Positions 17,262 to 20,794 of a stretch of 32,000 nucleotides of DNA are shown here, in pieces (positions within the stretch are counted from its first letter, which is position 1; each line of letters starts with the position of its first letter). A program made the translations under genes and the position numbers. This stretch comes from Longivirga aurantiaca. Lineage in GTDB: Bacteria > Actinomycetota > Actinomycetes > S36-B12 > CAIYMF01. The stretch is taken from assembly GCF_042660085.1 (NCBI RefSeq), contig NZ_JBHSTI010000003.1, forward strand, positions 11,962 through 43,961. The letters are read 5' to 3'. Below the pieces are notes generated by a model. It was not told the origin of the DNA and made no database searches. It worked only from the letters and a program-made list of their open reading frames with translations.

Positions 17262-17556
17262 CCGGCGAGTGGACCACCCGACCGCTGGCGCCGGGGTATC
17301 CAGATACCAGTGTGTGCGGCGTTCTAGGTCTTGCCCGTGACGGAGTCGGCGGCCGTCATCGTTCGCCTTGTGGCTCGGCTCCTGACGCCCGCAAGGCGCA
17401 CCGCAACTGCACGAGGGGCCAGTTGACCGCACCGCTCGAGCCGTGCCGGGTTGTGACATCTGCTGCGGCATGGTTTGGGCGCCAGAGTGCCTGCTGTGGC
17501 TGCGGAATCGGGCCGCGACGGCCGAATGCTCCTTGGAGCCAGAGGAGTGGACGCTG

Positions 17557-19109
17557 CCGATCTTGATCGTTTCACCGTGGTGGTGAGAATGGGTGGGTCA
17601 CTCGGCGACGTCGTAAAGACTCTGGTGCGGCTGAGCCCGTAGAACAGTGCGGTGCGGGGTGCCCGGGTCGCCGGATTGCTGCCGTTGAGCGCGTGGGTCT
17701 GTCTCCCGTCCAGAGCTCCCTCCGGGTGGCGCCGTGGCGCCGGTGCAGTGCCGGGGCCATGAGGGTGCGGAGGCGCGTGATGGATGTCGTCTTCGATCGG
17801 GTGGCGGGGCTCGATATCGGGAAGAAGCTGGTGGTGGTGTGCGTGCGCACACCGGGGGAGCGGGGGCGGCGGGTCTCGCAGATCCGCACGTTCCGCACGA
17901 TGACCCGCCACGTCGAGGTGCTGGGCGAGTGGCTGGTCGAGGAGGGTGTGCAGGTCGCGGCGATGGAGTCGACCGCCACCTACTGGAAGCCGGTGTTCTA
18001 CGGCTTGGAGGACCGGGTGGAGTGCTGGCTACTCAACGCGGCTCACATGAAGGCGGTGCCGGGCCGCAAGACCGACGTGCGTGACGCGGAGTGGATCGCG
18101 CAGTTGGTCGAGCACGGGCTGGTGCGGCCCTCGTTCGTGCCTCCGCCGTCGGTGCGCCGGCGGCGGAACCTGACCCGCTACCGGGTGCAGCTGATGGGTG
18201 ACCGGACCCGGCATGCGGGCAGGCTGGAGAAGCTGCTCGAGGATGCCTCGATCAAGCTGTCGTCGGTGGCCTCGAACATCACCGTGACCTCCTCGCGGGA
18301 GATGCTGGCCGCGCTGGTGGCCGGTGACCGGGACCCTTCGGTGATGGCCGACATGGCGCACTCCTCGCTGCGCCGCAAGATCCCTGACCTGACCGAGGCG
18401 CTGATCGGCCGGTTCGACGATCACCACGCGCTGCTGGTGGGGGCGATGCTGCGTGAGCTCGACCTGGTCGATGAGGCGCTGGTCCGGCTCGATGCGCAGA
18501 TCGAGGCGGAGATGACGCCGTGGGCCCACGAGCTCGATCTGCTGCGCACGATCCCCGGGATCGGTCCGGTGGTGTCCCAGGCGTTCATCGCCGAGACCGG
18601 CGGGGACATGTCCCGGTTCGGGTCGCCGGAGTCGCTGGCGGCGTGGGTCGGTGTCGCACCTGCGGTGCACGAGTCCGCCGGCAAGCGCACACCCGCCGGC
18701 TCGCGGCGGGGCAACAAGTGGCTGACCGCGGCGCTGGTCGAGGGTGCGCACTCCGCAGCGCAGTCCAACGGGACCTACCTCGCCGCTCAGTACGCGCGCC
18801 TGGCCTCGCGTCGCAGCGGCAAGCGCGCTGCGGTGGCGGTCGCGCACTCCATGCTCGTCTCGGCCTAGTGGATGCTGGTCCGTGACGAGCCCTACCAGGA
18901 CCTCGGCCCTGACTGGTTGTCCAAGCGCAACGACCAGGCGCACACCCGACGCCTGGTCGCGCAGCTCGAGCGGCTCGGCCACACCGTCGTCCTGGACCCC
19001 GTCGCCTAACACCTACGACCGCCGGAAACCGTTCCGGGCCAGTTCATCCGGGCTGCGCCCGGATGCTGTCGCGCCCTGGTGCACTTCATTCTCGGGTCAG
19101 TCCGCGCTG
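17557..19109 (+). mobile_element. IS110-family insertion sequence, copy A (1553 bp)
   Basis: No terminal inverted repeats. The left end is CCGATCTTGATCGTT and the right end is ..CATTCTCGGGTCAGTCCGCGCTG. A 223-bp non-coding leader precedes a DEDD-type transposase. The ends were defined by alignment with copy B and by the flanking 11-mers. Confidence 0.85.
17780..18868 (+). CDS. IS110-family transposase, truncated by a premature TAG (362 aa; about 47 C-terminal codons lost)
   Basis: MDVVFDRVAGLDIGK..AMESTATYWKP..GRKTDVRDAEWIA is the DEDD/RuvC-like N-terminal domain. ..IPGIGPVVSQAFIAETGGDMSRF..HESAGKR is the C-terminal Tnp domain. At 18866-18868 copy A has TAG where copy B has TAT (SAYWMLVRDEPYQ..). 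The downstream 141 nt still align in frame with copy B. Confidence 0.85.
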   Translation: MDVVFDRVAGLDIGKKLVVVCVRTPGERGRRVSQIRTFRTMTRHVEVLGEWLVEEGVQVAAMESTATYWKPVFYGLEDRVECWLLNAAHMKAVPGRKTDVRDAEWIAQLVEHGLVRPSFVPPPSVRRRRNLTRYRVQLMGDRTRHAGRLEKLLEDASIKLSSVASNITVTSSREMLAALVAGDRDPSVMADMAHSSLRRKIPDLTEALIGRFDDHHALLVGAMLRELDLVDEALVRLDAQIEAEMTPWAHELDLLRTIPGIGPVVSQAFIAETGGDMSRFGSPESLAAWVGVAPAVHESAGKRTPAGSRRGNKWLTAALVEGAHSAAQSNGTYLAAQYARLASRRSGKRAAVAVAHSMLVSA

Positions 19110-20631
19110 GCGATCTTGATCGTTGGGTTGTGGGGATGAGAATGGTGGGGCCGCTCGGCGACGCCCTTTCACTCTGGTGCCGGAGAGCCCGAAGAAGAGT
19201 CCGGTGCGGGGACCTCGGGTGTGTCGAAGTTGTTGCTGCGAGCACGTGGGTCTGTATCCATGGCAGAGGTCCCTCCGGGTGGCGTCTCGTTCGCTGATGG
19301 TCGGGGGTGGTCGTGATGGATGTGTTGTTCGGCCGGGTTGCCGGGATCGATGTCGGCAAGGCGACGGTGACGGTGTGCGTGCGGACACCGGGCACCGGTC
19401 GTCGGAAACGCGGATGTTCGGCGACGATGACCAGGTCGCTGGTGGTGATGGCGGACTGGCTCGAGGAGTGCGGTGTGACGCTGATGGCGATGGAGTCGAC
19501 CGCGACGTACTGGAAGCCGACCTTCTACTGTCTCGAGGAAGGGATGGAGTGCTGGCTGCTCAACGCCGCGTATATGAAGGCGGTCCCCGGCCGCAAGACC
19601 GATGTGCGTGATGCGGAGTGGATCGCTCAGCTCCTGGAACACGGGCTGGTGAGTCCGTCGTTCGTGCCGCAGCCGGAGGTCCGCACCTTGCGGAACCTGA
19701 CGCCGTACCGGCTCCAGCTGATGGGGGATCGGACCCGGGCCGCGGGTCGGTTGGAGAAGCTGCTCGAGGCGCCTCGATCAAGCTGTCGGTGGTCGCGTCG
19801 AACATCACCGCGACGTCGTCGCGGGAGATGCTCGCTGCGCTGGTGGCCGGCGAGCGGGACGCGGCGGTGATGGCCGACCTCGCGCACTCACGCTGCGGCG
19901 CAAGATCCCGATCTGACCGATGCGTTGACCGGGCGCTTCGACGATCACCACGCGGCGATCGTCGGGCAGCGGCAACCAAACTGGAGCAGACCGAGACCGG
20001 ACTTCGGGGCATCGACGCCGAGCTCGAGATCCGGATGGTGCCCTCCGCGCGGCAGCTTGAGCTGCTGGGCACCATCCCGGGTGTCGGGTTGGTGACTGCG
20101 CAGGGCTTCATCGCCGAGACCGGTGGCGACATGTCGAAGTTCGGGTCGCCCGAGCGCCTGGCGGCCTGGGTCGGCCTGGCCCCTGCGATCCACGAGTCGG
20201 CCGGGAAGCGAACGCCGGCGGGATCCCGCCGGGGGAGCAAGTTCCTGACGTCAATGTTGGTCGAGGCCTCGAACTCCGCATCGCGCACGAAGAACACCTA
20301 CCTCGCATCGCAGTTCAAACGGATCGCCTCCCGGCGAGGCCACGGTCGAGCGGCGGTCGCCGTCGCGCACTCCAGGCTGGTCTCCGCCTATTGGATGCTC
20401 GTGCGCGACGAGCCCTACCAAGACTTGGGGCCGGACTGGCTGACCAAGCGCAATGACGAGGCGCACGCACGGCGCCTTGTCGCCCAGCTCGAACGGCTCG
20501 GCCACACCGTCGTCCTGGACCCCGTCGCCTAACACCTACGACCGCCGGAAACCGTTACGGGGCAGTTCATCCGGGCCGCGCCGGATGCTGTCGCGCCCTC
20601 GTGCACGTCATTCTCGGGTCAGTGGACGCTG
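19110..20631 (+). mobile_element. IS110-family insertion sequence, copy B (1522 bp), directly abutting copy A
   Basis: The left end GCGATCTTGATCGTT and the right end ..CATTCTCGGGTCAGTGGACGCTG are colinear with copy A over the full length, with many substitutions. Confidence 0.85.
19316..20532 (+). pseudogene. IS110-family transposase pseudogene (three frameshifts)
   Basis: Aligned to copy A by eye, there is a 1-nt deletion near 19770 (LEKLLE|), a 1-nt deletion near 19890 (AHS|LRRKIPDL) and a compensating +1 near 19965. Homology therefore runs through frames 2, 1, 0 and 1. The C-terminus is intact through ..GHTVVLDPVA. Confidence 0.85.
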
Positions 20632-20794
20632 GGCCTGAGCAGCTCGCTGCGCCAACGTTCCGCAAGGGGAAGCCGGACGGTCCGATGGTTGCGCGGTGGT
20701 CGGCCGCCGCTCATGGACCAGGTCGGTCGGGAGGGCCGTTCGCCGATGTCAGTCACGGTCACCCCCGCCGGGGGTGCGGCTCGCTTCTGGCCCG

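What the first reader, a model, noticed from the sequence alone, without database searches (positions are those of the whole stretch)
17546..20632. Two diverged IS110-family elements inserted head-to-tail at one site, flanked by an 11-bp sequence that each right end regenerates
AGTGGACGCTG occurs immediately left of copy A (17546-17556) and again as the last 11 nt of copy B (20621-20631). The A/B junction carries the variant AGTCCGCGCTG (19099-19109). Each element therefore ends in a sequence resembling its own left-flank target. As a result, the right junction (IS end plus GGCCTGAGC) recreates a target-like site. That would explain why a second, clearly diverged relative landed exactly at the boundary of the first rather than elsewhere. 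The two copies differ by many substitutions, so this is not a recent tandem duplication.
Basis: partly seen in the sequence, partly recalled or inferred. Interest (0 to 1): 0.6.

Follow-up and report, generated by a model that had tools for sequence, protein, structure and literature searches.

The report
Stacked IS110 elements at one landing site
Two distantly related RNA-guided (IS110-family) jumping genes sit head-to-tail because the newer one landed at the same short landing sequence in front of the older one; the repeated 11-mer is the 3-base crossover core plus 8 bases that were assigned to the wrong side, so this is an ordinary family with a tidy, modestly interesting history.

Summary
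AGTGGACGCTG lies at 17546-17556 and 20621-20631 (0.02 copies expected by chance), and AGTCCGCGCTG at 19099-19109. The two elements are 75.5% identical. Both are IS110-family elements with a DEDD recombinase and a bridge-RNA gene in the left end.

Comparison of about 60 relatives shows the crossover core is WGT, here AGT. One RNA loop carries the 6 bases left of the left core. It also carries the complement of the 1-5 bases right of the right core. The left 8-mer is A's own first 8 nt. The right 8-mer is chromosomal right arm, not B's end. Other copies repeat only AGT.

B's guides fit the empty site, of which a copy exists in the same genome. A's right guide fits B's first base. So B most likely landed first and A later landed at the retained left arm and core in front of B.

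Such stacking recurs: 7 of 50 copies, with the relic on the right in the five cases of unequal decay. Landing pads in this genus carry left-end remnants of 8 to 232 nt. The far-right 8-mer is probably such a remnant. This is a known kind of element, and interest is moderate to low.

The parts
17535..17545 (+). Left target arm (LT) of the landing site, GGAGCCAGAGG. It is the conserved end of a ~1.3 kb repeat belonging to an int-xis island.
   Evidence: The same motif precedes every copy in the genus and also unoccupied sites. The 3' guide segment of bridge-RNA loop 1 carries these bases across ~60 relatives (4.23 of 6 against 3.44 shuffled, p<1e-4).
17546..17548 (+). Core AGT, left copy (the crossover point).
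   Evidence: WGT is present at the left junction and at every right end. W (A or T) co-varies between the left flank, the right end and both guide segments of loop 1.
17549..19101 (+). IS element A (1553 bp, corrected boundaries). It starts with GGACGCTG and ends with GGGTC-AGT.
   Evidence: Boundaries come from guide-flank covariation. The same first 8 nt are carried by an A-type remnant at another pad in a related genome (L125). A copy 96% identical lies elsewhere (L028).
17558..17591 (+). A's left-end palindrome CGATCTTGATCG (17558-17569), containing a -35-like TTGATC, then 16 nt and a -10-like GAGAAT (17585-17590).
   Evidence: Read from the sequence. It is conserved in all relatives, and the palindrome sequence varies by subfamily while staying self-complementary. 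Promoter function is inferred, not shown.
17594..17745 (+). Bridge-RNA gene of A. The guides are: right-target guide 17613-17621, left-target guide + core 17639-17648, left-donor guide + core 17692-17702.
   Evidence: RNAalifold on 34 relatives gave 40 pairs, 17 of them with compensatory changes. Rfam has no match.
17780..19009 (+). Recombinase gene of A (410 codons), cut by an in-frame TAG at 18866-18868. The DEDD and Ser motifs are present.
   Evidence: Pfam PF01548 + PF02371. Translation is and comparison with B (TAT at that codon).
19099..19101 (+). Core AGT at the A/B junction.
19102..20623 (+). IS element B (1522 bp), older and decayed. It starts with CCGCGCTG. Its bridge-RNA gene is at about 19147-19298 (right-target guide 19165-19173, left-target guide + core 19190-19200, left-donor guide + core 19245-19255).
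   Evidence: Alignment with A and guide extraction. B-type copies with the same first 8 nt sit at other pads (L116, L124, L127, L128).
19316..20532 (+). Recombinase pseudogene of B: 1217 nt, not a multiple of 3. It has four 1-nt deletions relative to A between about 19770 and 19963, plus a -10/+1 pair near 19390-19423.
   Evidence: tblastn splits it into two frames.
20621..20623 (+). Core AGT at B's right end.
20624..20776 (+). Chromosomal right arm. The block up to 20776 is shared at 96-97% with C29.
   Evidence: The empty-site paralogue C29:18225-18379 matches from the 11-mer onward. The 5' guide of loop 1 pairs with the right flank +1..+5 across relatives (p=1e-4).

Best explanation
The locus is a landing pad that bridge-RNA-guided IS110-family elements have used repeatedly.

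How recombination works here: it occurs at a 3-nt core, AGT. The element's RNA recognises the 5-7 bases left of the core (left target arm GCCAGAGG) with one guide. A second guide recognises the core plus only 1-4 bases to its right. After insertion the left junction still holds the whole left arm and the core, followed by the resident element's first bases. In this clade those first bases resemble the target's right arm. The left junction therefore remains a usable target for any relative with a similar left guide.

Order of events here: B inserted first into LT-AGT|GGACGCTG... A then inserted at LT-AGT|CCGCGCTG..., directly in front of B.

What the 11-mer is: the left copy is core + A's own first 8 nt. 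The right copy is core + chromosomal right arm. The right-arm 8-mer is most probably the last remnant of a still older A-type copy.

What is shown and what is inferred: family membership, the RNA structure, the guide-flank covariation, the boundaries and the recurrence of stacks are shown. The order of insertion, the relic origin of the 8-mer and all biochemical steps are inferred.
For: (1) Family: PF01548 + PF02371, DEDD/Ser motifs in the translation, and no terminal inverted repeats.

(2) RNA: the structure is conserved in 34 relatives, with 17 of 40 pairs showing compensatory changes.

(3) Core and arms: the 3' guide of loop 1 equals left flank -6..-1 plus WGT (4.23 of 6 against 3.44 shuffled, p<1e-4). 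Rare variants match (TAGG, ACGG, CGGG, AGTCG). The complement of the 5' guide equals WGT plus right flank +1..+5 (2.24 of 5 against 1.73, p=1e-4). It does not match the element's own first 5 nt (0.88 of 5). The second loop carries the right-end sequence GGGTC-TGT.

(4) The left arm plus AGT exists without any element at C29 and C5 of this genome and in G007.

(5) Order: B's left guide matches the chromosomal left arm in 4 of 6 positions but A's right end in 1 of 6. B's right guide fits GGACG at +1 and +3, with a wobble at +2. A's right guide and its second-loop extension both predict C at +1, which is B's first base, not the G of the original arm. A has one stop codon, whereas B has several frameshifts.

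(6) Recurrence: 7 of 50 full copies are followed in register by a left-end homologue, and L019 and L077 add to these. In five of the seven, including this window, the members differ in decay and the more decayed member lies to the right. In four it is a left-end remnant without a recombinase gene, and in this window it is the frameshifted copy B. L050 is an intact duplicate.

(7) Genus landing pads carry in-register left-end remnants of 8, about 21, 24-56, 75, 93 and 232 nt.

(8) In non-tandem copies the first 24 nt of right flank resemble the element's own first 24 nt (10.8 against 9.0 identities, permutation p=2e-4).

(9) For IS621, sites matching only the donor right arm are the commonest off-target insertion sites (bioRxiv 10.64898/2026.08.31.748434).
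Against: The permutation tests ignore shared ancestry among copies, so the p-values are optimistic. Within the AGT subclade alone (n=12-14) the guide-flank tests are not significant. A's own left guide matches the left arm in only 3 of 6 positions, and its right guide matches B's start by a single base beyond the core. No RNA segment that reads the element's own first bases (a right-donor guide) could be identified. The 8-nt 'relic' is too short to prove homology, and the right arm shows no further similarity to a left end. No related genome with B alone at this pad was found. No reads, circles or transcripts could be examined.
Confidence: 0.7

Rival explanations
1. A inserted first into the empty site, whose right arm equals A's own first 8 nt. 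B then inserted at A's right junction by a donor-left-arm 'half-match', with B's donor loop recognising A's right end, which is identical to B's own.
For: The final arrangement would be identical. Left-donor-only half-match insertions are documented for IS621, at 1.1% of reads. A's and B's right ends are identical over CTCGGGTC-AGT. The empty site is a perfect left arm + A-type right-donor hybrid.
Against: B's left guide fits the chromosomal left arm (4 of 6), not A's right end (1 of 6). A's right guide and second-loop extension predict C at +1, which is B's first base, not G. B is the more decayed copy. Among about 60 copies none has a right-end relic on its left, whereas relics on the right are common. 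That set was selected for having the left-arm motif, which weakens this last point.
Confidence: 0.17
2. One reading: each element ends in the 11-mer or its variant. The left 11-mer is pure target, and the right junction regenerates a target into which the second element landed.
For: The 11-mer repeat is real and non-random. The empty site holds it once.
Against: Other copies of both lineages have unrelated 8-mers at the two junctions. The RNA guides read the bases immediately flanking AGT, including the 8-mer region on the right as target. At tandem junctions the 8-mer follows the type of the downstream left end, not the upstream right end. Examples are CCGCGCTG with B-type left ends at four other pads and AAACAAAT/GAACAAAT with one Arthrobacter left-end type.
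Confidence: 0.05
3. The identity between A's first 8 nt and the right arm is not a relic but mimicry or capture. Either A-type elements evolved their right-donor arm to copy their preferred target's right arm, or they picked it up through an off-register crossover at the second ..T|G (GCT|G). This would make both hybrid junctions better substrates.
For: Resemblance between right flank and own start is clade-wide, even where the right flank is a conserved host sequence, such as the GATCTTG-containing target of the Geodermatophilaceae copies. All unoccupied pads carry left-end-like 8-mers.
Against: Remnant lengths form a continuum (8 to 232 nt, in register), which is what decay predicts. No guide reading positions +5..+8 was found. 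No hairpin signal is present in right flanks.
Confidence: 0.3
4. A and B moved together as one composite unit and produced an 8-11 bp target-site duplication.
For: The pair is flanked by identical 11-mers.
Against: IS110-family elements make no duplication beyond the core, and no other copy here shows one. A-type elements carry the same 8-mer at other pads without B (L125). A-type and B-type occur separately elsewhere.
Confidence: 0.03

Closest known systems
IS621 / IS110-group bridge-RNA recombination (Durrant 2024, PMC11208160; Hiraizumi 2024, PMC11208158)
   Same: A DEDD + Ser recombinase. The non-coding RNA gene lies in the left end upstream of the recombinase. The RNA has two internal loops, one reading the target arms and one reading the element's ends. 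A short core is shared by target and donor, with T as its last base. The left guide is long and the right guide very short. Two bases after the core in each 3' segment tend to match the non-cognate DNA, as handshake guides do.
   Different: The core is WGT or GT rather than CT. The two target guides are in the opposite order along the RNA: here the complement of the right arm is 5' and the copy of the left arm is 3'. The -35-like and -10-like boxes both lie inside the left end. No right-donor guide was found. The element's first ~20 nt resemble the target's right arm.
Half-match insertion and expanded or tandem IS110 loci (bioRxiv 10.64898/2026.08.31.748434; 10.64898/2026.08.14.744561)
   Same: Insertion into sites that match only a donor arm. 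Repeated insertion into occupied loci, tandem modules, and no target immunity.
   Different: Those tandems were called at >=95% identity, so they are duplications. Here the partners are 75% identical lineages that arrived separately. The second preprint argues that LT|RD junctions do not regenerate a target, whereas in this clade they appear to be reused.
IS900/IS901/IS902/IS116 group of actinobacterial IS110 elements
   Same: The same phylum, no inverted repeats, no duplication (PMC8141618), and orientation-specific insertion next to a Shine-Dalgarno-like purine run. The published target consensus is recalled from my own knowledge and was not verified here.
   Different: Relationship to these named elements was not tested, because no sequences were compared.
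IS1111-type seekRNA elements (Siddiquee 2024, PMC11187229)
   Same: The order of the two target-matching regions is reversed relative to the IS110 type, as seen here.
   Different: Their RNA lies downstream of the recombinase and they have long subterminal inverted repeats. Here the RNA is upstream, and only a 7-nt subterminal inverted repeat is seen.

Membership tests
IS110 family (IS110 group) | N-terminal DEDD (RuvC-like) domain and C-terminal Tnp domain with catalytic Ser | tested here: met
   PF01548 E=3.6e-22 and PF02371 E=4.3e-22 in A. Both are also found in the pieces of B. The motifs LDIGK, MESTA, KTDVRD and HESAGKR are in the translation.
IS110 family (IS110 group) | No terminal inverted repeats and no target duplication beyond a short shared core | tested here: met
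   The best local match between the first 40 nt and the reverse complement of the last 40 nt scores only 4. Only WGT is shared by the two junctions in other copies.
IS110 family (IS110 group) | Long non-coding left end upstream of the recombinase that encodes a structured RNA | tested here: met
   The left end is 231 nt before the ATG in A, against 92 nt after the stop. The consensus structure has 17 of 40 compensatory pairs. There is no Rfam hit, and transcription was not tested.
Bridge-RNA guided recombination | One RNA loop base-pairs with both arms of the target around the core | tested here: met
   Covariation and permutation tests for the left arm (p<1e-4) and the right arm (p=1e-4). In the AGT subclade alone the tests are not significant.
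Bridge-RNA guided recombination | A second loop base-pairs with both arms of the donor (right end-left end junction) | tested here: inconclusive
   The left-donor guide CGTGGGTC-TGT matches the right end (5.18 of 6) but is nearly invariant. No right-donor guide was found.
Bridge-RNA guided recombination | Guide order as in IS621 (left-target guide 5', right-target guide 3') | tested here: not met
   The order is reversed (compare PMC11208158). This does not affect family membership but marks a structural variant.
Bridge-RNA guided recombination | Circular intermediate with abutted ends, and RNA-dependent insertion | not testable with these tools

The most novel reading that the evidence does not exclude
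In this actinobacterial IS110 clade the element's first ~20 nt copy the right arm of its target. The left junction (left arm + core + element start) therefore stays a real target. Relatives stack at the same core, newest on the left. The result is a datable stratigraphy of intact copy, decayed copy and shrinking left-end relics. This would contradict the current assumption that IS110 insertion destroys its target. It would come together with a bridge RNA whose target guides are in the reverse order to IS621 even though the RNA lies upstream of the recombinase.
Probability: 0.4. Interest if true: 0.55.

Novelty: new member of a known kind. Interest (0 to 1): 0.35.

Why it matters
For annotation, IS110 boundaries in actinobacteria should be set at the WGT core. 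Setting them by eye from flanking repeats misplaces them by 8 nt and invents 'target duplications'.

For biology, the element's own RNA guides can be used to order successive insertions at one site. The data also suggest that in this clade a resident copy does not protect its site, and may even mark it for relatives. That bears on target immunity and on off-target rules for bridge recombinases. Neither element here is likely to be active on its own.

Tried and rejected
1. Rfam scan of 17000-21200 at E<=1 found nothing.
2. A search for further copies in the genome found only A and B, so junction statistics had to come from other genomes.
3. I searched for a right-donor guide as any >=6-nt match, direct or complementary, between each element's core + first 10 nt and its own RNA. 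No recurrent column emerged. The CGTCCA/TGGACG match in A-type elements is not supported by other subfamilies and is treated as chance.
4. I tested whether the target's right arm carries a hairpin like the left-end palindrome, by analogy with ISPpu10 'dual-match'. Right-flank windows at +5..+32 are not more structured than control windows (Wilcoxon p=0.99), so this idea was rejected.
5. I considered a model in which the conserved left-flank motif is part of the element. It was rejected because the motif occurs without any element (C5, C29, G007) and is absent from tandem junctions, except at the odd L050 junction.
6. I considered a model with crossover after the palindrome. It was rejected because B, L002 and L003 have no palindrome in their right flank.
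7. No B-only or A-only version of this pad was found in 28 genus genomes.
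Full report
**Observation.** The 11-mer AGTGGACGCTG lies at 17546-17556 and 20621-20631, and the variant AGTCCGCGCTG at 19099-19109. Two exact copies in 32 kb compare with 0.02 expected from shuffles. The two units between them align over their whole length at 75.5% identity, with the last ~150 nt above 90%. Each has the IS110 DEDD domain and the Transposase_20 domain. A's gene (17780-19009) has a single in-frame TAG at 18866-18868. 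B's gene (19316-20532) is 1217 nt long and broken by several 1-nt deletions. The assembly holds no further copies.

**The empty site.** One exists in the same genome. Contig C29:18198-18379 joins the last 38 nt of the left flank to the 11-mer, present once and reading AGTGGAAGCTG, and then to about 145 nt of the right flank at 96-97% identity. A second unoccupied copy of the left-flank end lies at C5:12317 and a third in G007.

**Where the crossover is.** I collected about 80 related loci from GTDB genomes and more from the genus. All left junctions read (R)TGC(C/A)(A/T)GAnG-WGT, followed by about 8 variable nt and then a short palindrome. All right ends read ATTC(A/T)CGGGTC-WGT, followed by variable sequence. 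W is A in one subclade and T in the other, and it changes together at both junctions.

The left end encodes a conserved structured RNA. RNAalifold on 34 members gives 40 pairs, 17 of them with compensatory changes. Its first internal loop has a 3' segment that repeats the 6 bases left of the left WGT plus WGT. Rare variants match, including TAGG, ACGG, CGGG and AGTCG. Its 5' segment is the reverse complement of WGT plus the first bases of the right flank.

Against shuffled pairings, the left-arm match is 4.23 of 6 against 3.44 (p<1e-4). The right-arm match is 2.24 of 5 against 1.73 (p=1e-4). The same guide does not match the element's own first bases (0.88 of 5). The second loop carries CGTGGGTC-TGT, the right-end sequence.

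This is the logic described for IS621, where a target loop reads both arms around a core and a donor loop reads the element's ends (PMC11208160; PMC11208158). The core is therefore AGT. A is 17549-19101 and B is 19102-20623. The 8 bases GGACGCTG at 17549-17556 are A's first bases. The 8 bases at 20624-20631 are chromosomal.

Two caveats apply. The permutations ignore relatedness. Within the small AGT subclade alone the tests are not significant.

**Does each right end regenerate the 11-mer?** It does not. In L002 the junction 8-mers are GGACCTTG on the left and ACGAGCTG on the right. In L003 they are ATTGGTG(G) and CAGCGTCC, and the other copies behave the same way. Only AGT recurs. At tandem junctions elsewhere the 8-mer goes with the downstream left end. 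CCGCGCTG accompanies B-type left ends at four other pads, and AAACAAAT/GAACAAAT accompanies one Arthrobacter left-end type.

**Order of events.** Several lines point to B landing first.
- B's left guide (CGAAGAAG-AGT) matches the chromosomal left arm GCCAGAGG at 4 of 6 positions next to the core. It matches A's right end CTCGGGTC at only 1 of 6.
- B's right guide predicts AGT-GAAAG and the arm reads AGT-GGACG. This is a match at +1 and +3 and a wobble at +2.
- A's right guide (..AAAG-ACT) and the two bases after the core in A's second loop (CT) both predict C at +1. B starts with C (19102), whereas the original arm starts with G.
- A is nearly intact and B is decayed.

So B most likely landed in the empty site, and A later landed at the left arm and core in front of B. 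The reverse order is possible through a donor-left-arm half-match, a reaction documented for IS621. I give it about 0.17.

**Is stacking a habit of this clade?** Of 50 full copies with enough flank, 7 are followed, in register from the core, by a significant left-end homologue. L019 and L077 add two more. In L040, L042, L053, L063, L071 and this window, the left member is the better-preserved copy. The right member lacks a recombinase gene or is frameshifted. L050 and L077 look like recent duplications.

In the 43 non-tandem copies the first 24 nt of right flank still resemble the element's own first 24 nt. There are 10.8 identities against 9.0 at a control offset (permutation p=2e-4, Wilcoxon p=5e-4).

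Within the genus, 9 of 28 genomes hold the landing pad. The pads carry, immediately after AGT and in register, left-end remnants of 8, about 21, 24-56, 75, 93 and 232 nt, or whole copies. This continuum is what repeated landing on the left plus decay on the right would give.

On that reading the far-right GGACGCTG is the last 8 nt of an older A-type copy. An A-type remnant in G018 starts with the identical 8-mer. Eight bases cannot prove homology, and mimicry or capture of the target's right arm remains a live alternative (about 0.3).

**What the target is.** The left flank (about 16285-17548) is a 1.3 kb repeat, 75% identical to C5 and 85% to G018. It lies beside a tyrosine integrase gene (14968-16110, minus strand). 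Earlier notes of this scan describe it as part of a small tRNA-integrating int-xis island. I did not test that. The right flank runs into a Cys/Met-metabolism PLP enzyme gene that lacks its first ~126 profile positions.

**Comparison with what is known.** The elements are ordinary members of the IS110 family. Tandem modules, repeated insertion into occupied loci and absence of target immunity were reported in 2026. Half-match insertion at donor-arm-like sites was also reported.

Three things differ here. The partners are diverged lineages rather than duplicates. The reused junction appears to be left arm + core + resident start, which that preprint assumed is no longer a target. And the two target guides are in the opposite order to IS621 although the RNA is upstream of the recombinase. 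That order has been described for IS1111-type seekRNAs.

**What could not be done.** The tool for finding sequencing runs was unavailable, so no circles, excision joints or transcripts were examined. No right-donor guide was identified. A hairpin requirement in the target's right arm was tested and not found.

**Verdict.** The boundaries need correcting by 8 nt, and the reused junction is probably the left one. This is a known kind of element with a neat reconstructed history, and its interest is modest.

Noticed in passing
17613-17648 (A) and 19165-19200 (B); alignment A1: In the target loop of the bridge RNA, the segment complementary to the right arm lies 5' and the segment identical to the left arm lies 3'. 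This is the reverse of IS621 (left-target guide 5', right-target guide 3'), although the RNA lies upstream of the recombinase as in the IS110 group. A reversed order has been reported for IS1111-type seekRNAs.
   Followed up: partly
L050:3800-3840 (Geodermatophilus chilensis): Two identical copies stand in tandem, and their junction reads right end-TG-CAAGAGG-TGT-left end. Nine bases of the left target arm are repeated between the copies. This is unlike all other tandem junctions and suggests an off-register crossover at an upstream TG.
   Followed up: no
17585-17591 and 19087-19093 (same in B: 19138-19144 and about 20609-20615): There is a subterminal inverted repeat, GAGAATG in the left end and CATTCTC in the right end. 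The -10-like box may therefore also, or instead, be a recombinase-binding or STIR-like motif.
   Followed up: no
17558-17569, 19111-19122, and relatives: The palindrome 9-25 nt into the left end keeps its self-complementarity while its sequence differs between subfamilies. Examples are GCGATC..GATCGC, GGAAG..CTTCC, GAGCC..GGCTC and GGGACC..GGTCCC. This points to a conserved DNA or RNA hairpin of unknown role upstream of the RNA start.
   Followed up: partly
20777-23298 versus C29:18379: C29 continues directly from the 145-nt right-arm block into sequence that in the window starts at 23299 (92% identity). About 2.5 kb of gene fragments, including the 5'-truncated PLP enzyme gene at 20696-21577, are therefore an insertion here or a deletion in C29.
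   Followed up: partly
L028 (JBFWSN010000015.1, labelled Dehalococcoidia MAG): This locus holds a copy 96% identical to A, with a left flank like C29. It sits in a bin labelled as a different phylum, which probably reflects mis-binning, or else recent transfer.
   Followed up: no
L049, L059, L061, L062, L064, L076, L082, L091 flanks: Copies in Blastococcus, Geodermatophilus and Modestobacter share one conserved target on both sides: ..CCGTCACCACGA..TGCAAGAGG | TGT | GTGGCACT TGATCTTGG..CTCCAG. This is a conserved intergenic sequence of unknown identity, and it contains the same GATCTTG as the elements' own left ends.
   Followed up: no
Genus genomes G013, G015, G043, G045 (L119, L120, L122, L123): Four species share a landing pad whose right arm is an old left-end remnant of about 24-56 nt, followed by conserved sequence. 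The relic therefore predates those species or travels with the island.
   Followed up: partly
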